From Candidatus Omnitrophota bacterium (GTDB lineage Bacteria; Omnitrophota; Gorgyraeia; Zapsychrales; Fredricksoniimonadaceae), in the NCBI GenBank assembly GCA_044225175.1, contig JBGAJA010000002.1, positions 82,917 to 146,916 on the forward strand: a stretch of DNA of 64,000 nucleotides, written 5' to 3'. Below, in pieces: positions 8,098 through 23,447 of the stretch (position 1 is its first letter; every line of letters starts with the position of its first letter). Position numbers and translations under genes: made by a program. Under the pieces are notes generated by a model. It worked only from the letters and a program-made list of their open reading frames with translations. It made no database searches and had not been told where the DNA came from.

Positions 8098-11000
8098 TCA
8101 GATCTTAGCCAATTGCTCTTGTTCTCGTCCAGGATTTGTAGAATTATCCTTCAATCCTAACAGAGGTCTCATTTGCATAATGTTCAGCGGTGTTATCTGA
8201 ATGATCACAGGTTCAGCTGAGAATATGCCTTGAACTTTAATACGTGCAATCATGGCTGGATCGAAATTCACTTTAACCTCACCGTTAACATCTTTCATCA
8301 CACTCATGCCCATGTTGGCACTGTTTAAATCAATACCACCGGGAGAAGAACTGTGGGCTGAATCTGTGGTTAATCCTTTATTTATTGAGGCATCGGTGGA
8401 TCTAGCTCCTTGACCAGCAAAACTTTTGGACATGGCGAAATCGGAAAACCGTTCAACCATACTATCAATAGACTTACCATTCACATTTTTAATGGTATCT
8501 ATTTCATTTCGGAACCTATTGGCTAATTCGTAAGCTGTTAAATCAGTGGGGAAATTCCTTATATAACTTATTATTTTTCCATCCTCTTTTTTTTCTATAA
8601 TTAATTTTCTTTGATTACTTCCCAAATCTTCAGCTTTAACCATCCAACCTTTCTTAGAAAGCATATTTGCTGATACTCTAACTCTGACTACTTTTTTACT
8701 CCTAGCCCTCGCTGCATTAACAGCTGGCTTAGCTGCCATGGCGGAGTCATATGGTCGGGGGAAACGGTTGTTAACAAGATCACAAAGAGTAGTCACCGTC
8801 CATGGTTTATCAAAAATATTATCCCTCTCTTGATCTGAGAACTCCGTAATGGATAATTCTCTCTGTATTGTTGAAAACAACCCAAATTCTTTGTTATATC
8901 TATTTTTTCCTAAATTAACCGAAGGAGTATCGCTGTCCTTAAGGGAACCCTTTGCTAATCCAAATTGTCTTTCTATAATTTCAATAACTTTTTGTTTTCG
9001 TCCTTTGTTCTGAATGTCATATTTTATGAATCTAATCCATTTTCCTAGTTGATCTTGATTATACGATTGCACTCCAATACTATCTGTATTGTTTTCATCT
9101 GCCTTAAGTAGATGTCTTCCTTCAAAATATTCATTTTTTATTGCTTCATAAATTTCTTTGTCTTCTGGAAACAATCTTGACAAGACGAGAATTTCAACAA
9201 AATTAGTATTACGACTCGAATTTTCTAAAAAACTGCCATAAAACTCATCGATAAAACGGATAACACGATCATATTCAAATTCTTTCCCATTCTTAAACTT
9301 AATCTTCACCTCCATCGCTGCGTCGTTAGATGCGATGGCCGCATCGGAGAATTTCTTTGGCTGACTGGCTATCATGGCTAGATGAGGTAAGGCTGCTTTC
9401 ATATCATTAACTTTAGCGATCATTGCCTCGCTCACATCAGGTCTCCAGCGATCGTCTCTTGCAGTAGTATCAATATGATTAGGAAGAGAAGCGGCTAAAG
9501 CTGCCAATTTTGCAATTTCAAGCGGTGCAAATCTTTGGTCTATTCTCAAGGGAAGGTATCCTCTATCAGCACCAAAGCGCTCGGAGAAGTTTGATTCTAC
9601 AATCAACATCACCGTAGGGTTTTCATATGTATAAGCAAAAGGTTCCCATTGGTCTATTTCTTCTTTAAAACTGTCTGGCATAATTACAAAAAGAGTGGCT
9701 GGTTCATACGCAGATAAAGCCCGACGATAATAAAATCCTTTAGCAACGGTTTTTGTGATCGAGCCTCCTCTGACCGTCTGTTGTGCTGTTAATTGCAAAT
9801 TCAATTGATCTCTAAAAGAAACTGTTGCTTCTTGAGGTCCAAAAACTATTCTAAAGCCTCGTGGACTACCATCACTCCATATAAGATTCCCATGCTCATC
9901 TTGTGAATACCCTTGATTGGATTGGTTAAAATGCAACATCGCTGAGTCGGAAGATTTGACTGCTATGGCCCGTTGTGGATTAAAAGCACCATTAATATTT
10001 AAGGCTGTTGTGATACGTTGGAACGAAGAGCCTGTGGGGGTAGCCACAGTGGCTGCATCCATTAAATTGTGCGATACACTAAGCATTGCTTCATTAGGCC
10101 CTTGGTATCCCCCTGAGAAGTATTTTCGTGGAATTCTTTGACCCGTAAGCTTGCCCTGAGCGTCAGTCAAAGGGTCTTCTTTGATATAGTTGAATACACC
10201 CTTCTTATATGCCTGAAGATACTGCTGGTAGATTTGTTCTTTTACAGATGGATCAGAAAGGTTGACGCCTTTAATTGTATTTTTATTGGAATAGACCTGA
10301 TTAATAAGCGCTTCTTTAAGGTTCTTTTTGTACCATATAGCCAGAATCTGGGAATTGAAGATTTGGCGTAATGTGGCGAAGTTTTTGCCGGTGTTGACTT
10401 CTTTTTCGATTTCAGGAATGACGATGTCTCGAATGATTTGGCTGCTGATGACGTTGGGGGTATTTCCCTGGGTTGCTTTCACATTCAACGCTGTCTCGCT
10501 TGGCAACCTGCTTGGGGACACGTTCTGGTTGTTCTTGTTAGGAACATGTCCCCTGGTTGGCATTTGGTTTTTATCTCTGGCTAGATAATCTTCCTCCAAC
10601 ATCACCTTCAAATGCCCATCTACAACAAAGGCTGTTTGTCCATGTTCATATACACTGGCTTTATCGGCTAGAATCCACACCTTATTAAAGGTGTTAACTG
10701 GTATCTGAGCATTGGGACCGTAGATTGCTTGGGCTTTGGCATAGACTCTGTTCCAAAACTCTTTTCCTAGGTCTTTCTCTGGATAGATCAAAGATGCGGT
10801 TAACTGTTTGAGGATGTAGTCTTGGGCTAAAAGATCTCTGCCTAAGGCTGTTTGGCCTAAGGCTTCAGGAACTATACGGTCTTTTTCATAGGGGCTTAGG
10901 TTCACCCATAGGTCTTTCTCTGGAACGGTTAGGCAGGCGAAGAAATATTTAACCAAACGGTCGCCTTCTTGATGTAGAGACGCAAGATCTTGCGTCTCTA

Positions 11001-11235
11001 CAGATAGGCCGGAATTCCCGGTATCTACGATAAAATCAAATAAAAATGGATTATCTTTATGAACAGTTAAACCTTTGATTAAGGTTGGTTCAAAGGCTGG
11101 GCTTAAATTGACCATGGTTCCAGGAATAGGTAGAGACGCAAGATTTTGCGTCTCTACTGCATGTGATTTAGGAATAATAATTGATGTGCATGAAAAGGTA
11201 AGAATAACCAGGGAAGCAGTAACCTTCTTAAACAT
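8098..11235 (-). CDS. Giant secreted protein B (1045 aa), a paralog of the 1848-aa protein. It has a signal peptide. Its N-terminal domain of about 330 aa and a short C-terminal module (GGIDxxS...) are shared with A. Function unknown.
   Basis: Long ORF. N-terminus ...CLTVPEKDLWVNLSPYEKDRIVPE...NTFNKVWILADKASVYEHGQTAFVVDGHLKVMLEEDY aligns with protein A. Signal peptide MFKKVTASLVILTFSCTSIIIPKSHA. Confidence 0.75.
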   Translation of the reverse strand: MFKKVTASLVILTFSCTSIIIPKSHAVETQNLASLPIPGTMVNLSPAFEPTLIKGLTVHKDNPFLFDFIVDTGNSGLSVETQDLASLHQEGDRLVKYFFACLTVPEKDLWVNLSPYEKDRIVPEALGQTALGRDLLAQDYILKQLTASLIYPEKDLGKEFWNRVYAKAQAIYGPNAQIPVNTFNKVWILADKASVYEHGQTAFVVDGHLKVMLEEDYLARDKNQMPTRGHVPNKNNQNVSPSRLPSETALNVKATQGNTPNVISSQIIRDIVIPEIEKEVNTGKNFATLRQIFNSQILAIWYKKNLKEALINQVYSNKNTIKGVNLSDPSVKEQIYQQYLQAYKKGVFNYIKEDPLTDAQGKLTGQRIPRKYFSGGYQGPNEAMLSVSHNLMDAATVATPTGSSFQRITTALNINGAFNPQRAIAVKSSDSAMLHFNQSNQGYSQDEHGNLIWSDGSPRGFRIVFGPQEATVSFRDQLNLQLTAQQTVRGGSITKTVAKGFYYRRALSAYEPATLFVIMPDSFKEEIDQWEPFAYTYENPTVMLIVESNFSERFGADRGYLPLRIDQRFAPLEIAKLAALAASLPNHIDTTARDDRWRPDVSEAMIAKVNDMKAALPHLAMIASQPKKFSDAAIASNDAAMEVKIKFKNGKEFEYDRVIRFIDEFYGSFLENSSRNTNFVEILVLSRLFPEDKEIYEAIKNEYFEGRHLLKADENNTDSIGVQSYNQDQLGKWIRFIKYDIQNKGRKQKVIEIIERQFGLAKGSLKDSDTPSVNLGKNRYNKEFGLFSTIQRELSITEFSDQERDNIFDKPWTVTTLCDLVNNRFPRPYDSAMAAKPAVNAARARSKKVVRVRVSANMLSKKGWMVKAEDLGSNQRKLIIEKKEDGKIISYIRNFPTDLTAYELANRFRNEIDTIKNVNGKSIDSMVERFSDFAMSKSFAGQGARSTDASINKGLTTDSAHSSSPGGIDLNSANMGMSVMKDVNGEVKVNFDPAMIARIKVQGIFSAEPVIIQITPLNIMQMRPLLGLKDNSTNPGREQEQLAKI
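10974..11001. repeat. 28-nt perfect palindrome GTAGAGACGCAAGATCTTGCGTCTCTAC embedded in frame in gene B, encoding VETQDLASL
   Basis: Direct reading. Codons gta gag acg caa gat ctt gcg tct cta fall in the gene B frame. Confidence 0.8.
11130..11157. repeat. Second copy (27/28 identical) of the GTAGAGACGCAAGAT(T/C)TTGCGTCTCTAC palindrome, in frame in gene B. It encodes VETQNLASL at residues 27-35, immediately after the predicted signal-peptide cleavage site SHA.
   Basis: Direct reading. Residue V27 maps to 11155-11157. Confidence 0.8.
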
Positions 11236-11346: not shown

Positions 11347-11652
11347 TTACTCTGCTTTCTCAAATTCAAGCACAATTCCGCCTAAACGTGAGGCAATAAA
11401 GTTATAGAAGCCAGCAATCAAGCATCCTGTTAGGAAGCCTAATATTCCATTAATGATAGGCAACACTAGGATGGACCAAGCTCCCAGCCCCCACATTCCT
11501 GTCTCACCATTAACTAAAGATCCAAAAGTAACAATGATTCCAACCATTAAACCAACCAGTGTATGCAAAGCACTAAGGATGATCCCTAAGGATTTAAGGG
11601 AAATCTTCTTTAACTTGTAAATTATCGGTTCTCCTAAGACGGTATTCATCAT
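11347..11652 (-). CDS. Small membrane protein (101 aa, 2-3 predicted TM helices) between the two giant genes
   Basis: Hydrophobic ORF MMNTVLGEPIIYKLKKISLKSLGIILSALHTLVGLMVGIIVTFG.... It sits 19 nt after the stop of A and 111 nt before the start of B. Confidence 0.5.
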   Translation of the reverse strand: MMNTVLGEPIIYKLKKISLKSLGIILSALHTLVGLMVGIIVTFGSLVNGETGMWGLGAWSILVLPIINGILGFLTGCLIAGFYNFIASRLGGIVLEFEKAE

Positions 11653-11670: not shown

Positions 11671-14600
11671 CTATTCCGCCAATAATGTGTGGATCATGCT
11701 TTGAGAAACAGGTACAACCATTACAACTTCAGGCGTTATTCCATAGATGGATTGTATTGAAAAAGGCTCTATGCTAGGTTGATTAGTCCCTTGCTCTTGA
11801 AGATCTAATAAATGACTGTCCATATCAATGCCCCCTTTAATCTCAGAGAGGCCTTTAACAGGATTTGCGGTCATCATAGCCTGGTCTGAAGGAGATTTTC
11901 CAATCTCTTCAACCTTTGCAACCGTTTGAGGGTCAATCCCAATAGGTGAACGGGTAGTGTGAACGGAAATACTAGGATATGTCCAGGCCCGGTTCCAAAG
12001 GTGAATATCTTGAGGCTTAATACTCATCTTAAAAAGACCCAAATTGATCGTGAACTCAGGAAATATGGAAATGGTACTGGCCTTTTTATACATGGCATTA
12101 AACATCACCTTGTAAGCCATTAAACGGCCCAAAGGATCAAAAGCAAGGTTATTCATTTTCTTAATCACCTCACTATCCGTCGCATTTAATATCTGGCCTT
12201 GAATGTTGATGTGGTGATCTGTAATATTTTTATCTGAAAAATCCTCTCGGCCGATCGTAGTCACCTCTGCACCAGATACCAAACGATTGCCAAAAATACC
12301 ATTTCTAACCGCCTTAGCCTGTCTCAGAGTGACTTTAACAGCCTCTTTGGCCATTTGATCAACAGGAAGAGCACTAATAAGTTGTAGACCTCTGACAATG
12401 CGATGCGTAAATCTGGCTCCCAAATGATCTTCGGGGTTTCCTCCATGAACATTCATCGTCATGGAACCAGGCGCACGGGCCCCCATTTTGCTGACAAACG
12501 CAGTACTAATCTGATGCACAAAAGGAAGGTCTCCAATGACCATACTAGGAGGCCCCATTCTCGCCCATCGAGGCCTGCCGGTAAAGGTACGATAAATAAG
12601 TGTCGTAATTAAAAAAGGCGCCCACACCGCAACCATAAAGTCTGCTGTGGTTGCCCAAAAACCACTCATACTGCGAAGCGCAGGACCAGGGGGACATCCT
12701 AACGCATTCATGGCTAAATGAACTGGAGCTCCCATATAAAAAATACTAGCGACAAATGCTCTGAAGATAAAATTAACTTTAGGGGTTTCCAATAAATGTC
12801 CCCCGAGATACTGTCCATGATTAATTAGTTCTTGATGAACCTTGCTCTTAATGTCCCTGCCTTGCTCATCAACTCCTGTTATTCTTTTGGAATCTTTGAT
12901 CATTCCCTGAATCATGTCCTCGAGCCTTTTGAGATCGCTTTCTTGAACTTGTAAACCCCAAGGATTGTGATGAGGAAAAACTTCTCTTAATCGTTTAACC
13001 AAATGCCGTGTTAATAAAATCTGCTCTGCAAATAAAAGAATGTCTGAAGTAGGAGCTGCTTCTGCTGGATAGTAATCTCCCGTCGTAAAAATACGCCTTG
13101 TAAAAGGAGCATCCGGAGTTAATCTTTGCCCTAAAGCCATGTTGATCATGGCATCCAGACGAGAGGTCATCACAAATGTGTTGCCTTGAGTAATCTTATT
13201 TAAAAGTCCTGCTAAGGCCATGCTTGGAAATGTAGATCCGGAAAGAGATATGATTAAGCCGATTGTCCTATTGTTTATTTTAGATAGAGGGTCACGCAAT
13301 TTTTTATTAGAAGAGTTGGTTTCAATAGGCATTTTGGGCATAAAAATATGCAGTAATTGCTTAAAATTTTCACCTAACCACAAAGATTTTTCATAACCAC
13401 TAATATCTAAAACGGTGTTGTTGGAATCGTCCTTATTATTTAGTGTTTTTTGTTTTTGACGCAAACTTGAGATAGAACGATCAAAGTTAGCTATTAAATC
13501 ATCTAGAATTATTTTAATCTGAAGTTCGGTAAAAACCTGAAGCTCATGGTCCATTTGTTCAGCATGCTTTATAAGATCTTCATCTTTGATCTGTCTTGAT
13601 AGCAGCTTCTTATTTAAATCTTCTGCATAAGAAATAATGAAATTACTCGCCTGACTTTCAATGATGGCCACGATCAATGAGTTTTCCCAAGAAATGGAAT
13701 CTTGGTGCAAAAATTTCTTTTGATCTTCTGAACAAACCACTTGGCCTGATTCACAATCCTGTAAAAATTTGTGGATTCGCCTGACTACATCTGCACGCAA
13801 CAAAGAATACGTGAGGCTGTGTTTCTTTAAGAAATCTTCCACGTAACGAGAGGATGCCATTTCAGCAAAGGCTTCTGCAGATTGATAGTCAAAAGACCGT
13901 GGATTTTCCCAGTCCTTAACTTTGGTAGAGATGGCGTTGGATGTTCTTTCTAAATCTTCATCGATAATGTTTTGAGGATCTTTATATTCAATAGGGGGCT
14001 TGTAGTATGGATTATCTTCATTTAAAGAATAAAGCCGTTGTGAAATTTGTTCTGGGGTCAGATCTTTATTGCCGGAAGAACGCACCCTCACATAAAAGGC
14101 CTTTGTCTTTGAAAAACCAATGTCTGCAACCTCATCCTTTCTGGGATCTAACATAAATAACTTCTCTAAAGAACCTTTACTGCCAAATTTTCCCAATAAA
14201 ACCAAAGGGTCTGAGGCAAAGCTCAAAAACTTCTTCATTACATTAAAGCCAAACGCCATGCCTTGGGATTTTGAAAAAAGAGTCACTCCGTCATTTTGTA
14301 AAGAAGTCCTGACAACTAGCCCATAAGATCCTTCAGCTCTTTCTTTAAAATCCAAAGTGGCTTGAAAACGATTGCCAATAAAAAACCTTTCAACGGCCAT
14401 GTCCACAAATCGAATTCTAGTCTCTTGGCTTTGATTCCACCGACGTAAAATTTCTCCAGCTGGGGTTTGTTTTGAACCCTCTGCTTCTAAGCGTTTCACT
14501 AACTTTTCTTTAAACGCATTGATCTTGTGGTATTGAAACTTCAAATCCGGCCATTGATTAGCCATGTCTTTGCTTACCCACAAATCTTTAAATTCTTTAT

Positions 14601-17217
14601 TAGCCCCCAGATCAGGTCGCGAGAGCCCTGGGGCATCTTGGATAAAGATTTCTTCGAAGAGTTGCGCCATAGCATCTTCTTCTTCGATGTTTAGAATATC
14701 CCCCAAGGCTTCATCTGCTGTTTTATGATTGACCATGACATGGGCGTATCGAATCGATCCCCGCCAGCTGCCTTGAGTTAAATGAAAATGGATTTCTGGA
14801 GCCGTAGGTGGTGAGTCGCCCTCAGGCATATAGTCATAGCGCCCCTGGGTGCCCCTTTCTGGATCAGGAGGAATCCATACATCTTTCTTCATATGAACGA
14901 CTTTGCCAAAGAACTCTCGAATCTCTGTAAGATCAAGCATTCTGTCATGCAAATAATAATAATCATTGTCTCCGTTATGAGAGGTAGTGACCAAAACTTC
15001 TTTCTTATGGACCACCAGTTTTCCATCGCTAATTGCCCATTGAAGTCTTTCTTCTTTAGGACCTAAGAAAGGATGTGAGGCCCTTTTGCTGACAGCCCCT
15101 CCCGTGGCAAAACGCACATGACCATTGACTCCATGAACCATGACTTCACTATCAGCTGAATGCTTTGCTCCCTTGATGTCTTGTCTGAATTCACTGAGCA
15201 AGGAGCTTACTAAATCACTGCCTGCACCTCGTTTACTTTTAACGACCTTGGTCAAATAAACATTGGCTTCTCCATTAGAACCATCAATCATCACCTGTCC
15301 GGCCGACTGACCGCCTCTCACAATCAGACGCCTCATAAGCCCATCTACTCCCTCCTGCACCCATTGGGGATAAAGCCCTTGATTGGATTCATCAACCCAG
15401 AACACTCCATAATTGCCGCATTCGAATTTATCTGAATCAACAGGGAGTTTTTTAATGTCGGATTTCCATGAGGCCTTGATGGCATTCCATCCTGACACAC
15501 CGATAGGGCCTAAAAGAGGTAAAACCCAGGAATGTTCAAGCCCAAGAAAATAAGCGCTAATAGCTGTAGCGACTGTGGTAAGCCACGTTGCAGCGAATCC
15601 TGTATAATGGATGGTTTTTTTCCTCCAACCTTCACTGGAAAAAAGAACATAAGGGTTTTCTTTAGGTATTTGCCTCCAGGGTAATATTATTTGCAACCAT
15701 TGATTGAGACTGAAATTTGCTTTCAAATTATTAACACTTAAAGCTTCTTTCGATCGATGAGGATGGAATACGGCAGAGGACACAGCATGACCACCGACCT
15801 CATGAACCCCTATATTTAAGGCATATAATGCGCGTGTAATAAATGGCAAGGCAACCGCAGTCGTTATTAAACTCACTGGGTCCCATCCAACTGTACTAGT
15901 TGCTATGACCATGCCGCTACTCCAGCCTAAAAAATCCATCGATCTTGAGTATGTGGTCGCGGACTTTTGAGCAAAGTCTCTTTCTTTTCCTCCGACCAAA
16001 CGAGGAATAGAATTTCTAACTTCTCCTTCTATTAGCTTGAATGGATGCTTATTCGTCAAAGTTCTTTGATCAGGAAAACGCACAATGGAACCATGTTCAT
16101 CTGTAGCATTCAAATCGATAGTGGCCATGGCCAAATCACTGCCTAAGTCCATCCCTTGAGAATTCTCTATTTCACTGTAAACATGTTTGGTTTGAAGGCC
16201 GAATCCTATAAAATCCATCCCTCCTGATGCATATTTACGAGGAATAACTGTTTGATTTGAAGAATCATAATCTTCACGGATATAGTTATAAACCAGCTTT
16301 TTATATGCCTTCAGGTACTGTAAGAAAATCTTTTCTTTAATGTTCTTATCTTGAGCATCCACCCCTGTGATTTTATTTTTTCCAACATACTCTTGAGATA
16401 ACACGCTGCTTTTTAAATGTTTCTTGTACCATGTTGCTAAAATCATGGCATTGAAGACTTGGCGAACGACCGCAAAATTCTTTCCCTCATTGATTTCCCG
16501 CCTTAGTTCAGGAAGAATAATTTCTCGGACGATTTGGGCGTATTTTTCCGTAGGGGCAGGCCCCTGCCCGATATTTTTATCCATCGACACATAATCGTAT
16601 TCCAACATCACATCCAATTTGCTATCCACAACAAAAGCACTATCTCCCTTCACATAAACCTTGGCTGTTTTAGGGACGATCCAAACTTTATTAAAGGTAT
16701 TAATAGAAACATTGGTTGTGCCATAGATTTCTTGAGCCTTTAGATATATTTTTTGCCAAAACTTTCGGCCTAATTCATTTTCGGGGTAACTTAAAGAAGC
16801 CATGATTTGTTTAAGTAGATAGTCTTGTTCTAAAAGACTTTTCCCCATTTCCGTTCTACCAAAGTATTCAGGTGCAATGCGGTCCTTTTCATAGGGCGAA
16901 AGATTGACCCATAGATCACTTTCGGGAACTGTTAAGCAAGTAAGGAAATATTTGGTGAGTGTGGTAATTGCATCTTTTAAAGCTTGCCCTCTAAGGCCAG
17001 AAGCTCCTTCATCAATTAAGAAATCAAAACGCAAAGCATTATTCGTGTTGGTCTTAATCCCTTTTAATACCAAGGGTTTAAAAGAGGGGCTTGTAGAAAT
17101 CATCATCCCAGGAACAGGAAGATGAGGCATAGATTGAGCATGAGCATCCGGTAAAGGACCTAAGGAAGTAAGAAAAAATGCAAGAATGAGGATCTGAATA
17201 AGAATTTTCTTGATCAT
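11671..17217 (-). CDS. Giant protein A (about 1848 aa from ATG 17217; the ORF track uses an upstream TTG). It has a signal peptide, the shared N-terminal domain, several hydrophobic TM segments, an embedded class II (Ntn) glutamine-amidotransferase-like domain (residues about 604-760) and the shared C-terminal module. Function unknown.
   Basis: ...KFECGNYGVFWVDESNQG...RRLIVRGGQSAGQVMIDG...HGVNGHVRFATGGAVSKRASHPF...VTTSHNGDNDYYYLHDRM matches the GlmS/PurF/AsnB N-terminal motifs (CGIVG, RRLEYRGYDSAG, HTRWATHG..AHPH, VHNGIIENY). TM-like stretches include FIFRAFVASIFYMGAPVHLAMNALG and AVWAPFLITTLIY. Confidence 0.8.
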   Translation of the reverse strand: MIKKILIQILILAFFLTSLGPLPDAHAQSMPHLPVPGMMISTSPSFKPLVLKGIKTNTNNALRFDFLIDEGASGLRGQALKDAITTLTKYFLTCLTVPESDLWVNLSPYEKDRIAPEYFGRTEMGKSLLEQDYLLKQIMASLSYPENELGRKFWQKIYLKAQEIYGTTNVSINTFNKVWIVPKTAKVYVKGDSAFVVDSKLDVMLEYDYVSMDKNIGQGPAPTEKYAQIVREIILPELRREINEGKNFAVVRQVFNAMILATWYKKHLKSSVLSQEYVGKNKITGVDAQDKNIKEKIFLQYLKAYKKLVYNYIREDYDSSNQTVIPRKYASGGMDFIGFGLQTKHVYSEIENSQGMDLGSDLAMATIDLNATDEHGSIVRFPDQRTLTNKHPFKLIEGEVRNSIPRLVGGKERDFAQKSATTYSRSMDFLGWSSGMVIATSTVGWDPVSLITTAVALPFITRALYALNIGVHEVGGHAVSSAVFHPHRSKEALSVNNLKANFSLNQWLQIILPWRQIPKENPYVLFSSEGWRKKTIHYTGFAATWLTTVATAISAYFLGLEHSWVLPLLGPIGVSGWNAIKASWKSDIKKLPVDSDKFECGNYGVFWVDESNQGLYPQWVQEGVDGLMRRLIVRGGQSAGQVMIDGSNGEANVYLTKVVKSKRGAGSDLVSSLLSEFRQDIKGAKHSADSEVMVHGVNGHVRFATGGAVSKRASHPFLGPKEERLQWAISDGKLVVHKKEVLVTTSHNGDNDYYYLHDRMLDLTEIREFFGKVVHMKKDVWIPPDPERGTQGRYDYMPEGDSPPTAPEIHFHLTQGSWRGSIRYAHVMVNHKTADEALGDILNIEEEDAMAQLFEEIFIQDAPGLSRPDLGANKEFKDLWVSKDMANQWPDLKFQYHKINAFKEKLVKRLEAEGSKQTPAGEILRRWNQSQETRIRFVDMAVERFFIGNRFQATLDFKERAEGSYGLVVRTSLQNDGVTLFSKSQGMAFGFNVMKKFLSFASDPLVLLGKFGSKGSLEKLFMLDPRKDEVADIGFSKTKAFYVRVRSSGNKDLTPEQISQRLYSLNEDNPYYKPPIEYKDPQNIIDEDLERTSNAISTKVKDWENPRSFDYQSAEAFAEMASSRYVEDFLKKHSLTYSLLRADVVRRIHKFLQDCESGQVVCSEDQKKFLHQDSISWENSLIVAIIESQASNFIISYAEDLNKKLLSRQIKDEDLIKHAEQMDHELQVFTELQIKIILDDLIANFDRSISSLRQKQKTLNNKDDSNNTVLDISGYEKSLWLGENFKQLLHIFMPKMPIETNSSNKKLRDPLSKINNRTIGLIISLSGSTFPSMALAGLLNKITQGNTFVMTSRLDAMINMALGQRLTPDAPFTRRIFTTGDYYPAEAAPTSDILLFAEQILLTRHLVKRLREVFPHHNPWGLQVQESDLKRLEDMIQGMIKDSKRITGVDEQGRDIKSKVHQELINHGQYLGGHLLETPKVNFIFRAFVASIFYMGAPVHLAMNALGCPPGPALRSMSGFWATTADFMVAVWAPFLITTLIYRTFTGRPRWARMGPPSMVIGDLPFVHQISTAFVSKMGARAPGSMTMNVHGGNPEDHLGARFTHRIVRGLQLISALPVDQMAKEAVKVTLRQAKAVRNGIFGNRLVSGAEVTTIGREDFSDKNITDHHINIQGQILNATDSEVIKKMNNLAFDPLGRLMAYKVMFNAMYKKASTISIFPEFTINLGLFKMSIKPQDIHLWNRAWTYPSISVHTTRSPIGIDPQTVAKVEEIGKSPSDQAMMTANPVKGLSEIKGGIDMDSHLLDLQEQGTNQPSIEPFSIQSIYGITPEVVMVVPVSQSMIHTLLAE
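16548..16570. repeat. REP-family sequence (GGGCAGG-cc-CCTGCCCCTACGG on the coding strand) embedded in frame in gene A, encoding GQGPAPTE, in a region that differs from paralog B
   Basis: Direct reading. It has the same CCTGCCCCTAC half as the intergenic REP at 4690-4712. Confidence 0.6.
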
Positions 17218-17231
17218 AATGGCTTTCAAAT

Positions 17232-17478: not shown

Positions 17479-18750
17479 TTACAAAGATTTTTGCAGATCA
17501 GCCATCAAAATAATGGATTCGGCAATGTCTTTCATGGAGCGGCAGGAGTCCATGCTTTTTTTGTGGATGAGTCGATAAGCGGCATCTTCTGAGATTGAGT
17601 TCATCTTCATAATAATCCCTTTGGCACGTTCCACAAGCTTGCGCGTTTCTAAGGCTTCTTTGGCTTTGAGGGCTTCTTCCATGAGCTTGGTGTTTTCAAC
17701 AGCAACGGCTGCTTGATTTGCTACCATTTGCAGAACGTTGACCTCTTCGTCGGAGAAACGGTGCTGTTCTTTGGTGTAGACATTGATAACCCCAATGGCC
17801 TTATCTTTAACTATCATGGGAACAGCTACCATAGATGTTAAACCTTCCTTAACAGCCAAATCTCGATAGGCATACATTTTGTCATTTCTAACATCATAGA
17901 CTGTGATTGGTTTTCGTGTTTTAAGAACTGTGCCGCTTAAGGAAGTCTCTACTTTAATATTAGGTTTCTTTTTATAATCTTCACTCAAAGACTGTGTGGC
18001 TTTAATGACAAGATCGCTTCCTTTATCATCTAAAAGCATGACAGAACAAATCTTGGAATTAAGCATTTCTGCCGTCACAACGACAATCAAATTTAGAATT
18101 TCATCGAGATAGTGTTCGGAAGTGATTGACTGGCTGACTTTAATAAGAGAATCAAATTGCAAAGCTTTCTTTTTGGTTTCATCAAAAAGCCTTGCATGCT
18201 CAATAATGCCTCCCACCTGTTTAGCAATCATTTCAATAAGATTGATGGTGGTCTGGGAATAATCTTGTTCACGTTTATGTTGGACATTGATAACGCCAGT
18301 TGCCTTACCCTTAAAAATAACAGGGACAGAAAGAAACGCTTCATAGCGATCTTCTGGAAGAACATCAAAACTCTTGAAGCGTTGATCTTTGTAGGCTAGT
18401 TTTGAGATGGCGACCGTCTTACTTTCACGAGCTACCCACCCTGTAATTCCTTCCCCGATTTCCAAGTGCACCTTCCCTAACTCTTTAGTGTGAACCGTTT
18501 TGGAAGCCATTAGCACCAAAAATTCTTTCTTATCATCAAAAAGATAGATAAAAACAGAATCTGCCTTAGTCATTTCGGTCACGATTTTAACAATTAATTG
18601 GAGAGTCAGGTGTAAGTCAAGTTCGGAAGAGGCTATATCAACGACTGATCGAAGAACTTTAAGCTCTTCGTTGGAAGAAATATTAAGTGTTTTCTGGGGT
18701 GCCTTATTTTTCATGGGGGTTATTATATCCATCGACTCAACTAGACACAA
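17479..18750 (-). CDS. GAF-GAF-ANTAR RNA-binding antitermination regulator
   Basis: 423 aa. It has two GAF-like domains (...LHLTLQLIVKIVTEMTKADSVFIYL..., ...LDEILNLIVVVTAEMLNSKICSVMLLDD...) and a C-terminal ANTAR helix bundle, ALETRKLVERAKGIIMKMNSISEDAAYRLIHKKSMDSCRSMKDIAESII. Confidence 0.8.
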   Translation of the reverse strand: MCLVESMDIITPMKNKAPQKTLNISSNEELKVLRSVVDIASSELDLHLTLQLIVKIVTEMTKADSVFIYLFDDKKEFLVLMASKTVHTKELGKVHLEIGEGITGWVARESKTVAISKLAYKDQRFKSFDVLPEDRYEAFLSVPVIFKGKATGVINVQHKREQDYSQTTINLIEMIAKQVGGIIEHARLFDETKKKALQFDSLIKVSQSITSEHYLDEILNLIVVVTAEMLNSKICSVMLLDDKGSDLVIKATQSLSEDYKKKPNIKVETSLSGTVLKTRKPITVYDVRNDKMYAYRDLAVKEGLTSMVAVPMIVKDKAIGVINVYTKEQHRFSDEEVNVLQMVANQAAVAVENTKLMEEALKAKEALETRKLVERAKGIIMKMNSISEDAAYRLIHKKSMDSCRSMKDIAESIILMADLQKSL

Positions 18751-19147: not shown

Positions 19148-19255
19148 TTGCTTTTAACAAATCCTACAATATTCTTGACACTCTTATCTTTGTTTATATA
19201 TTGGATATGTGTTTCAATACTGTGTTCGAATTTACCTTTAGAAAACGACATTTCA

Positions 19256-19783
19256 ATGAATATTCCTGATCTATCTTTTTACTTCTTTGCTGCGATTTTG
19301 GTGTTCGCTAGTTTGTCGGTAGTTGCGGCTCGCAATCCTCTATATAATGTTCTGTCCTTAGTACTTGCAATCTTTTGTCTTTCTTCTTTATTTATTCTCA
19401 TGGAAGCTTATTTCGTAGGCATGATTCTGATTTTGGTCTACGCGGGTGCGGTCTTAGTTTTCTTTTTATTCGTTGTTATGTGCTTAAATTTAAATGCCGC
19501 TGCTATCACATCAGCCAAACAAAACCGCCTTAGACTCTTAGGAAGCCTGGTAGGGGTTGCCTTTCTATTAGAATTTCTTTTAGCCACCAAAAGTTTTATG
19601 GCAGCCCAAAATTTTGGCCCTACTACAGTCCGTGGAACAATTGAGGTGATTGGCAGAATCCTTTTTACAGATTATCTTCTTCCTTTTGAATTAACTTCCC
19701 TTCTCTTATTGATTGCTGTCTTTGGAATTGTATCTTTGGCTCAAGGAGCCTTTAGTACGGGTAAAGAGGTCGAACAATCATGA
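19256..19783 (+). CDS. nuoJ: NADH-quinone oxidoreductase subunit J
   Basis: MNIPDLSFYFFAAILVFASLSVVAARNPLYNV... aligns with the NuoJ N-terminus. The ORF track start at 19148 lies inside the upstream terminator. Confidence 0.85.
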   Translation: MNIPDLSFYFFAAILVFASLSVVAARNPLYNVLSLVLAIFCLSSLFILMEAYFVGMILILVYAGAVLVFFLFVVMCLNLNAAAITSAKQNRLRLLGSLVGVAFLLEFLLATKSFMAAQNFGPTTVRGTIEVIGRILFTDYLLPFELTSLLLLIAVFGIVSLAQGAFSTGKEVEQS

Positions 19784-20082
19784 TCGATATTCAATCTTAC
19801 TTAGTTCTCAGTGGTATTATTTTTGCTATTGGCTTAGTTGGTATTATGACCAGCCGTAGCGTTCTCAAAGTTCTTCTCTCTCTAGAACTTCTTTTGGCTG
19901 CCTCCAATTTATTGTTCGTGGCTTTCTCAAGATTTAATGGCGACTATGCGGGACAGTTGATTGTGTTCTTTGTCATTTTGGTTGCCGCAGCCGAAGTGGC
20001 TATCGGTTTGGCCATCATTGTTTTGATGTATCGCCGTTTAAACACGATTCAAGCCGATGAATTAAAGGAAATGAAATGGTAA
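19780..20082 (+). CDS. nuoK: NADH-quinone oxidoreductase subunit K
   Basis: 100 aa, 3 TM: MIDIQSYLVLSGIIFAIGLVGIMTSR. Confidence 0.9.
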   Translation: MIDIQSYLVLSGIIFAIGLVGIMTSRSVLKVLLSLELLLAASNLLFVAFSRFNGDYAGQLIVFFVILVAAAEVAIGLAIIVLMYRRLNTIQADELKEMKW

Positions 20083-21920
20083 ATCCTTGTTTAGTTTGGA
20101 CCTCTTATTTTGCGCCCCTGGTTGCTTGCATTATCATCACTTTGTTTTTCCTGCGTAATAAAAATCTAAGCTCATTGACCGCCATTGCCGGAATCTTGAC
20201 ATCCTTTATTTGCACAGTTTTAACAGCCATTCAAATTTTTAGCAGTCATCCTGCTTTAGAAGTCCAGCAATCCTTCACATGGATTCAGTTTGATCAGTTA
20301 ACCATTAACTTTGGGTTCTTAGTCAATCCTTTGGCCATTATGATGATGATGGTTGTCACAGGGGTTGGCAGTGCGATTTTCATTTATTCCCGCGGATACA
20401 TGGCTGATGATGAAAGCATGCCTCGCTTCTTTGCTTTCTTGAGTCTCTTTGCCTTTTCCATGATCGGCATTGTCTTATCTAATAATCTTATTCAATTATT
20501 TATCTTCTGGGAATTGGTTGGGTTAAGCTCCTATTTACTTATTAGCTTCTGGTATCAAAAGCCTTCTGCCGCTGATGCGGGGGTCAAAGCTTTCATGGTC
20601 AATCGCTTGGCTGATTTTGGTTTCTTGTGCGGCATTCTTCTTCTTTGGAGTCTTTCAGGGGTAGGTGGTGCACCGCGCAGTTTTCAAATCACAGATTTAG
20701 CATCTTGTGTCTCTGGCATGGATCCACATTTGCTTGGCATTGCCGCTTTACTACTCTTTTGCGGGGTCATGGGTAAATCAGCCCAAGTGCCTTTGCATGT
20801 GTGGCTGGTGGATGCTATGGAAGGTCCGACACCTGTGAGCGCCTTAATCCATGCGGCAACGATGGTGGCCGCTGGCGTATACTTACTGGCCCGTACATTC
20901 TTTATCTTTGAACCTTTGCATGATGCCTTAACCGTGATTGCTTATGTGGGTGGTTTTACAGCTTTGATGGCAGCTACCTTAGCTGTGGCTGAAAATGATA
21001 TTAAAAGAATCTTGGCTTATTCAACGCTTAGCCAATTAGGGTTGATGGTCATGGCTTTAGGTTTAGCTGGTCCTGTGCAAGGGATGTTTCACTTAACAAC
21101 CCATGCCTTCTTTAAGGCTTTGTTGTTCTTAGGCGCAGGCAGCGTGATCTACGGGCTTCATCACGAACAAAATATTTGGAAGATGAAAGGCGTGCTTTCA
21201 ACCATGCCTATTACAGGGATTACCTTCTTAATTGGCACATTGGCTTTAGCGGGCATCTTTCCTTTAAGTGGTTTCTGGAGTAAAGATGAGATATTAGCCT
21301 TGGCCCGTGAACATAACACATTGCTTTATGGCATGGCCTCCTTAGCTTCATTCCTCACAGCCTTCTATATGGGCCGCTTGTTCTTTATCGCTTTCTGGGG
21401 TAAACCTGCCCCTCACGATCACACCCATGAATCACCTGCTGTGATGACTTTACCTTTGATTTTTTTAGCCATTCTGTCGGTCATTGGCGGTGTTATTGGT
21501 ATTCCTCATTACATTTTCCCGGATCATGAAGCAGAATCCTTAAACATGCAAGTGGCTATCGTCTCTTCTGTGATTGCTGTTCTTGGACTTGCCATTTCCT
21601 ATGCTTTGTATGGCAAACGTCCAAACGTGGATCCTTTGGAAAAAGGTCTGGGCGGATTTTATTTAGTCTTAAAGAACAAATATTATTTCGATACTGTCTA
21701 TGGATGGTACGTTGATTACGTGCAACAAGGATTTGCCCTGGCATTAGCTTGGTTTGAGAGAATATTCATTGTTCGCTTAGGCGTGCATGGTATGGAAACA
21801 TTAGCTAAGGCAAGCGGCAAAGCATTACGGTTCTTACAAACCGGATTTGTACAGTTTTATGCCTTAGTGTTTATCTTTGGTGTAGTGTATTTATTTTATG
21901 TGATGGTTAAAGGCTTATGA
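20076..21920 (+). CDS. nuoL: NADH-quinone oxidoreductase subunit L
   Basis: 614 aa antiporter-like subunit. Confidence 0.9.
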   Translation: MVNPCLVWTSYFAPLVACIIITLFFLRNKNLSSLTAIAGILTSFICTVLTAIQIFSSHPALEVQQSFTWIQFDQLTINFGFLVNPLAIMMMMVVTGVGSAIFIYSRGYMADDESMPRFFAFLSLFAFSMIGIVLSNNLIQLFIFWELVGLSSYLLISFWYQKPSAADAGVKAFMVNRLADFGFLCGILLLWSLSGVGGAPRSFQITDLASCVSGMDPHLLGIAALLLFCGVMGKSAQVPLHVWLVDAMEGPTPVSALIHAATMVAAGVYLLARTFFIFEPLHDALTVIAYVGGFTALMAATLAVAENDIKRILAYSTLSQLGLMVMALGLAGPVQGMFHLTTHAFFKALLFLGAGSVIYGLHHEQNIWKMKGVLSTMPITGITFLIGTLALAGIFPLSGFWSKDEILALAREHNTLLYGMASLASFLTAFYMGRLFFIAFWGKPAPHDHTHESPAVMTLPLIFLAILSVIGGVIGIPHYIFPDHEAESLNMQVAIVSSVIAVLGLAISYALYGKRPNVDPLEKGLGGFYLVLKNKYYFDTVYGWYVDYVQQGFALALAWFERIFIVRLGVHGMETLAKASGKALRFLQTGFVQFYALVFIFGVVYLFYVMVKGL

Positions 21921-23395
21921 TTCCAAACATTCTTTCCTTGATTCTCTTAACTCCCGTCGTGGGATTAGCTTTGCTTTTTTTAATTCCTTCCCAAAAGACG
22001 GATTTGATTCGTAAGGTGAGCTTTTGGGCTACATTTATTCCCTTTGCTTTATCTGTGTATGTCTTTGCTTCCTATAATCCCTACTTAGGCGGTTATCAAT
22101 TTATTGAGATGATTCCTTGGGTCACTCCGTTAGGAATCTCCTACCACCTGGGGGTAGATGGCATTAACTCTATGCTTTTAGTCCTCTTAGGTGTTGCTTC
22201 GTTTACCTCGGTCATGGTGAGTGGCAATATCAAGGATCGCATCAAAGAATATTTCATCATGCTTATGTTAATTGTGATTGGCACATATGGCGCCTTCTTA
22301 TCCGTCGATATGTTCTTCTTTTATTTCTTCCACGAAATTGCTGCCATTCCAGTATTCTTGATGATTGCTATCTATGGTTCCCAGCGCCGTGATTATGCTG
22401 CCATGAAGCTTACCCTCTATTTAACTGCTGGCGCATCTTTGGCCTTGATTGGTTTGATTGCTCTTTATCTAAAGGTAGGTATTGGAAGCTTTGATTTGAT
22501 CGCGATCCAAGAGCATTTGGTCAACAATCCTATTCCTATTGCTGTTCAGCATTGGATCTTTCCTTTAATTGTGATCGGATTTGGCATCACATTAACCTTG
22601 TTCCCCTTTCATACATGGGCTCCCGTCGGATATGCAGAAGCACCGACCGCTGTCAGTATGCTGCACGCAGGTGTCCTTAAGAAAATGGGCGCTTATGCCA
22701 TCATCCGTTTTGCCATTCAATTAATGCCGGAAGCGGCCCACACATGGATGCCCATTATTGCTGTCTTGGCTGTCGTTAACATACTCTTTTGCGGTTTGGT
22801 TGCCCTCACCCAGCGCGATATCAAATACATTTTAGGATATTCCAGCTGCAGCCATATGGGCTATATCTTGCTTGGGCTTGCTTGCTATAACGTGATTGGA
22901 CTCAATGGGGTCGTCTTTATGATGTTTGCCCACGGCATTATGGCTACCCTAGCCTTCGCCTTAACAGGATTTATTGAAAACCAAACCAAAACACGAAACT
23001 TAGATGAATTGGGTGGAATCGCCAAACGCCTTCCTTTTATTTCCACATGTTTCATTATGGTTGCCTTAGCATCCGCTGGCGTTCCTGGATTTGCGAATTT
23101 TGTTTCTGAACTTTTAGTGTTATTAGGCGCATGGGACCAATACCGTTGGTTAACGGTCCTTGGCGTTCTTGGGATTGTTCTGGGCGCCATCTACATGCTT
23201 AAGATTATTCGTTTAGCTTTGCAAGGACCGTTAGGCCCTGGCATGGACAAATTAGTGGATGCCAAAGGCTTAGTGGCCAAGTTTCCATATGTACTATTAC
23301 TAGGAATTTTAATTTGGGTAGGCTGCTTTCCCTCAACATTGATTAAACATATTGAGACAAGCACCAAACCTGTAGCAGTTATATTGCAGAAATAA
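21917..23395 (+). CDS. nuoM: NADH-quinone oxidoreductase subunit M
   Basis: 492 aa antiporter-like subunit. Confidence 0.9.
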   Translation: MIPNILSLILLTPVVGLALLFLIPSQKTDLIRKVSFWATFIPFALSVYVFASYNPYLGGYQFIEMIPWVTPLGISYHLGVDGINSMLLVLLGVASFTSVMVSGNIKDRIKEYFIMLMLIVIGTYGAFLSVDMFFFYFFHEIAAIPVFLMIAIYGSQRRDYAAMKLTLYLTAGASLALIGLIALYLKVGIGSFDLIAIQEHLVNNPIPIAVQHWIFPLIVIGFGITLTLFPFHTWAPVGYAEAPTAVSMLHAGVLKKMGAYAIIRFAIQLMPEAAHTWMPIIAVLAVVNILFCGLVALTQRDIKYILGYSSCSHMGYILLGLACYNVIGLNGVVFMMFAHGIMATLAFALTGFIENQTKTRNLDELGGIAKRLPFISTCFIMVALASAGVPGFANFVSELLVLLGAWDQYRWLTVLGVLGIVLGAIYMLKIIRLALQGPLGPGMDKLVDAKGLVAKFPYVLLLGILIWVGCFPSTLIKHIETSTKPVAVILQK

Positions 23396-23397
23396 TA

Positions 23398-23429
23398 CCC
23401 GTAGGGGGCACGGCATGCCGTGCCCGTAC
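23398..23429. repeat. REP element CCCGTAGGGGGCACGGCATGCCGTGCCCGTAC in the nuoM-nuoN spacer
   Basis: Same family as the copy at 6565, in the opposite orientation. Confidence 0.75.
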
Positions 23430-23447
23430 TGTACAGAAAGAATACAC

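What the first reader, a model, noticed from the sequence alone, without database searches (positions are those of the whole stretch)
14950..15420. Class II (Ntn) glutamine-amidotransferase-like domain embedded internally (Cys about 604) in giant protein A
The segment KFECGNYGVFWVDESNQG…RRLIVRGGQSAGQVMIDG…GVNGHVRFATGGAVSKRASHPF…TSHNGDNDYYYLHD reproduces, in order, the CG(I/V)xG, RRLxYRGxDSAG, HTRWAT(H/G)G…HP and (V/S)HNG motifs of the GlmS/PurF/AsnB amidotransferase domain. In those enzymes the nucleophilic Cys must be the N-terminal residue, so an internal position implies either autoproteolytic cleavage at E|C (self-processing, like other Ntn hydrolases) or a non-catalytic, repurposed fold. 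Its location in a glutamine-centred neighbourhood (GSIII, GATase1, Gln-dependent NadE, amt/glnK) is suggestive.
Basis: partly seen in the sequence, partly recalled or inferred. Interest (0 to 1): 0.7.

Follow-up and report, generated by a model that had tools for sequence, protein, structure and literature searches.

The report
Membrane-tethered GlmS-like amidotransferase, internal Cys
The flagged segment is a real, complete glutamine-hydrolysing (class II, Ntn-type) domain that, with two sugar-phosphate-binding domains after it, forms a very divergent copy of the amino-sugar enzyme GlmS; its catalytic cysteine is buried 600 residues into a membrane protein, so the enzyme can only work if the protein is cut just before that cysteine.

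Summary
The motifs lie on the minus strand, in a 1852-aa ORF (11671..17229), with Cys604 at 15420..15418.

- **Detection.** Pfam, NCBIfam and pairwise searches find nothing. A profile of 18 orthologues hits only class II amidotransferases in the PDB (GlmS, E=1.7e-5).
- **Catalytic residues.** Cys1, Arg26, Arg73, Thr76, Asn98, Gly99 and Asp123 (GlmS numbering) are invariant or nearly so in 132 relatives drawn from clusters at 50% identity. A non-catalytic fold is therefore unlikely.
- **Downstream.** aa 1270-1745 fold as a double-SIS isomerase domain, so aa 604-1745 have the GlmS architecture, with helical inserts and a hydrophobic hairpin.
- **Upstream.** A signal peptide, an Omnitrophota-wide N-domain and a polytopic membrane module with an HExxH-type motif and a conserved Asp 13 residues before the Cys.
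- **Family.** At least 801 cluster representatives, unannotated in Pfam, from Omnitrophota, cyanobacteria and algae. Of 141 informative members, 124 have the Cys internal and 13 start Met-Cys.

Cleavage before Cys604 is inferred, not shown. The nitrogen-gene neighbourhood is conserved only in a close relative.

The parts
11671..17229 (-). Whole ORF ('protein A'), 1852 aa from TTG. NCBI's call (P0001, 1848 aa) starts at the ATG at 17217.
17134..17229 (-). Sec-type signal peptide, aa 1-32 (…LPDAHA|QS).
   Evidence: Read from the sequence, plus the hydropathy peak at aa 4-20. Inferred, no predictor run.
16210..17133 (-). Omnitrophota-wide N-terminal domain, aa ~33-340. More than 2000 proteins share it, fused to many different enzymes.
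15445..15942 (-). Polytopic membrane module, aa ~430-595. Conserved positions are R466, H476-E477…H481, P517, G544 and D591.
15787..15804 (-). HEVGGH motif, aa 476-481. This is HExxH in most relatives, with one extra residue in this clade.
15457..15459 (-). Asp591 at the end of the last membrane helix, 13 residues before Cys604. Conserved in 73 of 93 relatives. Candidate third metal ligand.
   Evidence: for conservation; the ligand role is inferred
15418..15420 (-). Cys604, the predicted Ntn nucleophile, aligned to Cys1 of GlmS. The preceding codon is GAA (Glu603), which is not a start codon.
14026..15420 (-). Complete class II (Ntn) glutamine amidotransferase domain, aa 604-~1068.
14338..14805 (-). 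Helical insertion of about 155 aa inside the amidotransferase domain, aa ~809-964. It lies between the Asp123-equivalent (D805) and the C-terminal β-sheet half.
   Evidence: Secondary structure of the model; split profile hits
13441..13944 (-). All-helical linker domain, aa ~1096-1263.
12877..13410 (-). SIS domain 1, aa ~1274-1451. It carries the phosphate-loop-like S1328-x-S1330-G1331-x-T1333.
12589..12780 (-). Hydrophobic helical hairpin between the two SIS domains, aa 1484-1547. Probable membrane anchor of the enzyme part.
   Evidence: lower pLDDT. The anchor role is inferred.
12001..12546 (-). SIS domain 2, aa ~1562-1743.
11674..11838 (-). C-terminal 'GGID' domain, aa 1798-1852. Most proteins that carry the N-domain also carry this.

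Best explanation
Protein A is a membrane-tethered pro-enzyme whose core (aa 604-1745) is a highly divergent paralogue of glucosamine-6-phosphate synthase (GlmS). The core is a complete class II/Ntn glutamine amidotransferase domain followed by a double-SIS sugar-phosphate domain.

Proposed topology (inferred from hydropathy and the positive-inside rule):
- The signal peptide sends the Omnitrophota N-domain outside the cell.
- About three membrane helices bring the chain back into the cytoplasm.
- The HExxH-type motif and Asp591 then lie at the cytoplasmic face, and Cys604 follows 13 residues later.

Proposed mechanism (inferred):
1. The peptide bond Glu603|Cys604 is cut, freeing the α-amino group of Cys604. 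Every Ntn amidotransferase needs that group as its general base.
2. The cut is made either by the intrinsic N-to-S acyl-shift autoproteolysis known for B. subtilis PurF and for glutamate synthase propeptides (my own knowledge of the family), or by the adjacent metalloprotease-like membrane module.
3. Cys604 then hydrolyses glutamine, or a γ-glutamyl amide.
4. The ammonia is passed to a ketose phosphate held by the SIS domains, giving an amino-sugar phosphate at the membrane. The enzyme part stays anchored by its own hydrophobic hairpin (aa 1484-1547).

Shown here: the fold, the architecture, the conservation of the catalytic residues, and the internal position of the Cys. Inferred: the cleavage, the topology, the acceptor substrate and the product.
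For: **Fold.**
- Profile against the PDB hits only class II amidotransferases.
- hhalign puts C604 on GlmS Cys1.

**Catalytic residues.** GlmS numbering was checked on the E. coli sequence. Among 132 relatives from 50%-identity clusters:

| protein A residue | GlmS equivalent | conserved |
|---|---|---|
| C604 | Cys1 | 131/131 |
| G605 | Gly2 | 131/131 |
| R638 | R26 | 131/131 |
| H704 | H71 | 132/132 |
| R706 | R73 | 131/132 |
| T709 | T76 | 129/132 |
| N752-G753 | N98-G99 | 132/132 |
| D805 | D123 | 132/132 |

**Acceptor domain.**
- The model of aa 1095-1795 (pLDDT 80) matches double-SIS isomerase domains: 108 hits at E<=1e-3 and TM-score up to 0.67 to GlmS C-domains.
- The S-x-S-G-x-T loop is kept.
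- 153 of 180 family proteins carry both halves.

**Need for processing.**
- The codon before Cys is GAA and the P1 residue varies, so internal initiation is excluded.
- 13 relatives begin Met-Cys. One of them sits on an 81-kb contig and has no membrane module.

**Membrane coupling.**
- 112 of 124 long-extension members have a membrane-like helix within 60 aa upstream of the Cys.
- The conserved residues are H476/E477/H481/G544/D591.
Against: - No experiment or proteomic datum shows cleavage.
- No curated model (Pfam GATase_2/6/7, SIS; NCBIfam) recognises any part.
- The SIS assignment rests on a predicted structure alone. Sequence profiles find nothing there (local hhalign E=0.34).
- The GlmS isomerase catalytic residues (K485, E488, H504, K603) cannot be matched with confidence, so the acceptor may not be fructose-6-phosphate.
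- A 603-residue 'propeptide' is far longer than the 11-43 residues of known amidotransferase propeptides.
- The P1 residue is not conserved, unlike in many self-processing Ntn precursors.
- The number of membrane helices is uncertain (2 to 4). With four helices the amidotransferase would face the periplasm.
Confidence: 0.62

Rival explanations
1. Cleavage is done in cis by the upstream membrane module, which acts as a site-2-protease-like zinc metalloprotease (ligands H476, H481, D591; base E477). It is not done by Ntn self-processing. Cutting 13 residues after D591 would create the catalytic N-terminal Cys. The amidotransferase would then be switched on by regulated intramembrane-type proteolysis, possibly in response to the external N-domain.
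For: - The module is conserved with the amidotransferase well beyond Omnitrophota: H476 in 67/93, E477 in 77/93, H481 in 78/93, D591 in 73/93 (A5).
- The motif lies 82-177 aa before the Cys, median 127, in 79 of 124 members.
- The Met-Cys member that was examined lacks the module.
- Peptidase_M50 is the commonest weak Pfam hit among members: 4 of 20, best E=0.0077.
- A RseP-like protease is the second PDB hit, E=0.72.
Against: - All M50 similarities are below threshold. hhalign against E. coli RseP aligns only the motif, E=0.066.
- 45 of 124 internal-Cys members have no H[ED]x2-3H motif. Orthologues P0025, P0026, P0034 and P0037 have only a single helix before the Cys.
- In protein A's own clade the motif carries an extra residue (HEVGGH), which changes the His-His spacing.
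- Known class II amidotransferase propeptides are removed without a dedicated protease (my own knowledge).
Confidence: 0.2
2. The domain is never cleaved and is not a glutaminase. It would be a repurposed Ntn fold that binds glutamine or a γ-glutamyl compound as a sensor, or a purely structural module in a large membrane protein.
For: - The Cys is internal in 124 of 141 members.
- Curated amidotransferase models do not match.
- The locus has a nitrogen-sensing flavour, with GAF-ANTAR, amt and GSIII genes.
Against: - The nucleophile and both oxyanion-hole residues, not only the ligand-binding residues, are invariant across relatives drawn from clusters at 50% identity. Pure binding would not require that.
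- Relatives with a classical Met-Cys start exist.
- The nitrogen-gene context is not conserved in more distant orthologues.
Confidence: 0.13
3. Artefact. The long ORF would be a mis-assembled or mis-called fusion of separate genes, and the amidotransferase would really start at its own initiation codon.
For: None beyond the unusual length. One orthologue (P0006) does show a frameshift-like split at its C-terminus.
Against: - The reading frame is uninterrupted here and in more than 20 orthologues from independent assemblies.
- The codon before Cys is GAA, and the residues before the Cys in relatives are Y, F, C, E, G, A and others, not initiators.
- The 25 residues upstream of the Cys are themselves conserved.
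Confidence: 0.02

Closest known systems
GlmS / GFAT (glutamine--fructose-6-phosphate aminotransferase, isomerising)
   Same: - Same domain order: class II amidotransferase followed by two SIS domains.
- The glutamine-site residues C1, R26, R73, T76, N98, G99 and D123 are conserved.
- The SxSGxT phosphate loop is kept.
   Different: - Cys is residue 604, not residue 2.
- About 24% identity in the structural alignment, and invisible to Pfam and NCBIfam.
- A 155-aa helical insert in the glutaminase domain, a 170-aa helical linker, and a hydrophobic hairpin between the SIS domains.
- Membrane-bound.
- The isomerase catalytic residues K485, E488, H504 and K603 could not be matched.
Class II amidotransferases made with a propeptide (B. 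subtilis and vertebrate PurF, 11 residues ending …EE|CG; glutamate synthase large subunit, about 36-43 residues; MEROPS family C44). From my own knowledge, not retrieved here.
   Same: An internal Cys-Gly that must become the N-terminus. Here too the P1 residue is Glu (E603|C604), as in the PurF propeptides.
   Different: The extension is 603 residues and comprises a signal peptide, an exported domain and a membrane module. P1 varies across the family. Processing is untested.
Site-2 protease / Peptidase M50 family (RseP, SpoIVFB), as a comparison for the upstream membrane module only
   Same: An HExxH motif in a membrane helix plus a conserved Asp at the end of a later membrane helix. The weak hits point to M50.
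   Different: - No significant profile match.
- No NxxPxxxLDG motif.
- One extra residue in the motif in this clade.
- The presumed substrate would be the protein's own chain.

Membership tests
Class II (Ntn) glutamine amidotransferase | Four-layer αββα Ntn-hydrolase fold | tested here: met
Class II (Ntn) glutamine amidotransferase | Nucleophile Cys, followed by Gly, at the start of the first β-strand | tested here: met
   C604-G605 align to GlmS C1-G2. Strand 1 of the model starts at residue 2. Cys-Gly is present in 141 of 141 relatives.
Class II (Ntn) glutamine amidotransferase | The Cys is the N-terminal residue of the mature protein | not testable with these tools
   In the gene the Cys is residue 604, with GAA before it. 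The mature N-terminus needs protein chemistry. 13 relatives do start Met-Cys.
Class II (Ntn) glutamine amidotransferase | Oxyanion hole (Asn98, Gly99) and glutamine-binding Arg73, Thr76 and Asp123 | tested here: met
   N752 and G753 in 132/132, R706 in 131/132, T709 in 129/132, D805 in 132/132. Numbering was checked.
Class II (Ntn) glutamine amidotransferase | Match to the curated Pfam or NCBIfam models (GATase_2, GATase_6, GATase_7) | tested here: not met
   No hit at E<=1 for protein A. No hit for 8 further family members at E<=0.01.
GlmS (GlcN-6-P synthase) | Architecture: amidotransferase followed by two SIS domains | tested here: met
   153 of 180 family proteins have both halves.
GlmS (GlcN-6-P synthase) | Sugar-phosphate binding loop S347-Q-S349-G-E-T352, plus S303 | tested here: met
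   S1328 in 17/22, S1330 in 18/22, G1331 in 22/22, T1333 in 19/22, S1282 in 20/22. The equivalence rests on a weak alignment and on the fold match.
GlmS (GlcN-6-P synthase) | Isomerase catalytic residues K485, E488, H504 and C-terminal K603 | tested here: inconclusive
   D1601 (20/22), H1602 (14/22) and K1581 are conserved nearby, but no reliable residue-by-residue alignment exists. E1600 is not conserved.
GlmS (GlcN-6-P synthase) | Soluble cytoplasmic enzyme that starts Met-Cys | tested here: not met
   A 603-aa N-terminal extension with signal peptide and membrane helices, and a hydrophobic hairpin at aa 1484-1547.
Peptidase M50 / site-2 protease (upstream module) | HExxH in a membrane helix plus an Asp ligand in a later helix, and a significant profile match | tested here: inconclusive
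   The motif and D591 are conserved. All matches are sub-threshold: Pfam M50 best E=0.0077 against a gathering score of 27 bits, PDB E=0.72, hhalign E=0.066. Protein A has HExxxH.
Self-processing Ntn precursor (PurF/GltS type) | Demonstrated removal of the residues before the nucleophile | not testable with these tools
   Only inferred, from the invariant catalytic set and the mechanistic need for a free α-amino group.

The most novel reading that the evidence does not exclude
The family is a new kind of zymogen switch. A site-2-protease-like membrane metalloprotease module is fused in cis directly before the nucleophile of an Ntn amidotransferase. A regulated cut would create the catalytic N-terminal cysteine and turn on amino-sugar synthesis at the membrane. 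In Omnitrophota the cut might be triggered through the exported N-domain. The arrangement is ancient and shared by Omnitrophota, cyanobacteria and algae.
Probability: 0.15. Interest if true: 0.85.

Novelty: new variant of a known kind. Interest (0 to 1): 0.62.

Why it matters
Class II amidotransferases are textbook N-terminal-nucleophile enzymes, and GlmS is the universal entry to amino-sugar and cell-wall synthesis.

This is a large GlmS-like family that curated domain libraries do not see: at least 801 cluster representatives at 50% identity. In most members the nucleophile lies hundreds of residues into a membrane protein, right after a conserved metalloprotease-like module.

If the cleavage is confirmed:
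- It would extend self-processing of amidotransferases from short propeptides to a whole exported-plus-membrane pro-region.
- It would point to proteolytic control of amino-sugar synthesis at the membrane.
- It would give a function to a 'dark' protein family found in uncultured Omnitrophota, cyanobacteria, diatoms, dinoflagellates and a streptophyte alga.

It also gives a concrete handle on the many Omnitrophota proteins that wrap ordinary enzymes between the same N- and C-terminal domains. For this cargo alone, catalytic activity demands a cut at a predictable bond.

Tried and rejected
**Searches that found nothing**
- Direct Pfam and NCBIfam scans of the whole protein.
- phmmer against the PDB.
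- A sequence profile of the C-terminal half against the PDB.
- Local hhalign of the C-terminal half against the GlmS isomerase domain: E=0.34, not significant. The SIS assignment therefore rests on the structure model.
- The whole-protein profile against the PDB recovered only the amidotransferase. Nothing matched the N-domain or the C-terminal domain.

**Upstream module and M50**
- All similarities are sub-threshold, so the module is not filed as M50.
- No other HExxH protein is encoded in the window.

**Explanations rejected**
- An internal start codon before the Cys.
- A canonical glmS elsewhere in the 64-kb window: tblastn shows none. This says nothing about the rest of the genome.

**Nitrogen-locus link**
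- Kept in L002, absent in L003-L005.

**Tools and literature**
- The afdb50 fold library was unavailable.
- Literature searches found no description of this family. They also did not retrieve the PurF and GltS propeptide papers, which I cite from my own knowledge.
Full report
**1. The observation**

The finding's coordinates (14950-15420) lie inside a single long ORF on the minus strand, 11671..17229, of 1852 aa. The quoted motifs are there in the stated order:
- KFEC604GNYG at 15429..15406
- RRLIVRGGQSAG at aa 633
- GHVRFATGG at aa 703
- TSHNGDNDY at aa 749

The codons before the cysteine read gat-aaa-ttc-gaa-tgc. No start codon precedes Cys604.

By ordinary searches the resemblance is not significant:
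- Pfam and NCBIfam scans of the whole protein return nothing relevant.
- phmmer against PDB sequences returns nothing.
- tblastn of E. coli GlmS against the window touches this region only at E=4.7.

**2. It is a real class II amidotransferase domain**

The protein has many orthologues in Candidatus Omnitrophota metagenome assemblies, at 28-54% identity over most of the length. A profile of 18 orthologous segments (A1) gave these results:
- Against PDB sequences, the 14 best hits are all class II amidotransferases (GlmS, GFAT1, PurF). The best is the E. coli GlmS glutaminase domain at E=1.7e-5, matched in three collinear pieces.
- hhalign of the full-length alignment against E. coli GlmS gives E=1e-5. 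It places E603-C604 on M1-C2, R638-G639 on R26-G27, H704..R706..T709 on H71..R73..T76, N752-G753 on N98-G99, and D805 on D123 (numbering verified).
- An AlphaFold2 model of aa 604-1090 is confident: pLDDT 90.9, pTM 0.92.
- Foldseek returns only GlmS, GFAT and PurF among its 39 hits with E<=0.001.

The domain is complete but split by an all-helical insertion of about 155 residues (aa ~809-964).

**3. What follows it**

A model of aa 1095-1795 (pLDDT 80.3) has these parts:
- a helical linker
- two Rossmann-like α/β domains, separated by a hydrophobic helical hairpin (aa 1484-1547)

Foldseek matches it to double-SIS sugar-phosphate isomerase domains, with 108 hits at E<=0.001. The matches include AgaS and the isomerase domains of GlmS and GFAT, with TM-scores up to 0.67 on the target. 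The SxSGxT phosphate-loop pattern is kept: S1328, S1330, G1331, T1333.

Sequence profiles alone do not detect the SIS domains. The GlmS isomerase catalytic residues cannot be matched reliably. The acceptor substrate is therefore open.

Taken together, aa 604-1745 have the domain architecture of GlmS.

**4. What precedes it**

- Residues 1-32 look like a Sec signal peptide (…AHA|QS).
- Residues ~33-340 are a domain shared, at 45-65% identity, by more than 2000 Omnitrophota proteins. Those proteins are otherwise fused to unrelated enzymes such as triose-phosphate isomerase, kinases, transketolase and M48 peptidases. The domain is also present in the neighbouring 1045-aa ORF.
- Residues ~430-595 are hydrophobic, with 2 to 4 likely membrane helices, and contain HEVGGH at 476-481.

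I aligned the 190 residues upstream of the Cys in 93 relatives. The alignment shows a conserved module:

| position | conserved in |
|---|---|
| R466 | 68/93 |
| H476 | 67/93 |
| E477 | 77/93 |
| H481 | 78/93 |
| P517 | 78/93 |
| G544 | 86/93 |
| D591 | 73/93 |
| G600 | 65/93 |
| C604-G605 | 93/93 |

Most members have a plain HExxH. Protein A's clade has one extra residue.

The pattern of HExxH in a membrane helix, with an Asp at the end of a later helix, recalls site-2 proteases. Every test of that relationship stayed below threshold:
- Pfam M50 in 4 of 20 members, best E=0.0077
- a RseP-like PDB chain at E=0.72
- hhalign against E. coli RseP at E=0.066, aligning the motif only

**5. The wider family**

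A search of 1.84 billion cluster representatives with the amidotransferase profile found 801 proteins at E<=0.001 and 338 at E<=1e-10.

Among the 141 retrieved proteins in which the first profile position is aligned:
- all 141 have Cys-Gly there
- 13 start Met-Cys
- 4 have a short extension
- 124 have a long one
- in 112 of those 124, a membrane-like helix lies within 60 residues upstream

Further properties of the family:
- The P1 residue varies (Y, F, C, E, G, A, R and others).
- The catalytic and glutamine-binding residues are essentially invariant in 132 members.
- 153 of 180 members also have the SIS half.
- Eight further members, like protein A, have no Pfam hit.
- Named members come from Omnitrophota, the cyanobacterium Stanieria sp. 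NIES-3757, the alga Klebsormidium nitens, a diatom and a dinoflagellate. The K. nitens protein is annotated 'putative type II Glutamine amidotransferase'.
- One Met-Cys member, on an 81-kb contig, has at most 17 in-frame residues upstream and no membrane module.

**6. Interpretation**

Ntn amidotransferases use the free α-amino group of Cys1 as their general base. This is established knowledge of the family (GlmS, PurF, AsnB, GltS). An internal Cys can therefore be catalytic only after cleavage.

Two facts make a degenerate, non-catalytic fold unlikely: the nucleophile and oxyanion-hole residues are invariant across very divergent relatives, and ordinary Met-Cys relatives exist.

I therefore read protein A as a membrane-tethered pro-enzyme that must be cut at Glu603|Cys604. 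Precedents are the 11-residue PurF propeptide (…EE|CG) and the 36-43-residue glutamate synthase propeptides. I cite these from my own knowledge; the library searches did not retrieve the papers.

Who makes the cut is open.
- **Intrinsic autoproteolysis** is the more economical answer. About a third of internal-Cys members lack the HExxH motif, and some orthologues have only one helix before the Cys.
- **The adjacent HExxH module** remains an attractive alternative. It co-occurs with the amidotransferase well beyond Omnitrophota, and D591 sits 13 residues before the Cys.

A three-helix topology fits the positive-inside rule. It would put the HExxH motif, D591 and the enzyme on the cytoplasmic side. 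This is inference from hydropathy only.

**7. Genomic context**

The neighbours are:
- on one side, a GAF-GAF-ANTAR regulator
- on the other, a small two-helix membrane ORF, a paralogue that carries the N-domain, two amt genes, GSIII and a class I amidotransferase

A relative at 50% identity keeps almost the same order, and there NadE and GltB follow. Three more distant orthologues sit in unrelated contexts. The glutamine-centred neighbourhood is therefore real but is not a conserved property of the family.

**8. Novelty**

- **Known:** the fold, the chemistry, the GlmS architecture, and the idea of an amidotransferase propeptide.
- **New, as far as the libraries and the literature searched show:** this large family of GlmS-like proteins that curated models miss, the position of the nucleophile deep inside a membrane protein immediately after a conserved metalloprotease-like module, and, in Omnitrophota, the further wrapping between phylum-specific N- and C-terminal domains.

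I rate it a new variant of a known kind. It is of moderate to high interest, and the inferred cleavage can be tested by a clear and cheap experiment.

Noticed in passing
window 16210-17133 (-) and 11674-11838 (-); also window 8098-11235 (-): Phylum-wide 'wrapper'. A ~310-aa N-terminal domain follows a signal peptide, and a ~60-aa C-terminal domain begins with GGID(L/M). Together they bracket very different cargo in more than 2000 Omnitrophota proteins, including TPI, PGI, transketolase, kinases, methyltransferases and M48 peptidases. The GGID motif lies 57-120 residues from the C-terminus in about 100 of the 120 listed proteins. Neither domain matches Pfam, NCBIfam or PDB sequences.
   Followed up: partly
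window 8098-11235 (-): A 1045-aa ORF next to protein A. It shares the N-domain (47% identity over 356 aa) and the C-terminal GGIDLNS motif, but has a different middle part with no Pfam hit. The close relative's locus L002 lacks it.
   Followed up: partly
window 11347-11652 (-); L002:15780-16052; L004:14845-15141: A small ORF of 90-101 aa with two hydrophobic helices lies directly downstream of the giant gene. It is conserved at 42-52% identity in two orthologous loci whose other neighbours differ. It may be a partner subunit.
   Followed up: partly
L003:14928-15146: The 72-aa ORF after orthologue P0006 (NCBI WCO69_02275, 1640 aa) encodes the GGIDL C-terminal domain. That gene is therefore probably split by a frameshift or an assembly error.
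   Followed up: no
window 17479-18750 (-): A GAF-GAF-ANTAR protein (RNA-binding antiterminator type) lies immediately upstream of protein A on the same strand. It holds the same position in L002. It may regulate the nitrogen gene block.
   Followed up: no
window 17217-17229 (-): The mechanical ORF starts at TTG 17229. NCBI's protein (P0001, 1848 aa) starts four codons later at the ATG (M5). Residue numbers here are +4 relative to that record.
   Followed up: yes
proteins P0258, P0199, P0236, P0242 (not in the window): The same family (membrane HExxH module, then Cys-Gly amidotransferase, then SIS domains) occurs in the cyanobacterium Stanieria sp. NIES-3757, in Klebsormidium nitens, in the diatom Seminavis robusta and in dinoflagellates. 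This suggests an old, possibly plastid-linked distribution.
   Followed up: partly
window 19148-24893 (+): A block of NADH:quinone oxidoreductase membrane subunits (chain 6, 4L-like, L, M/N-type) is divergently oriented from the regulator. The same adjacency is seen in L002.
   Followed up: no
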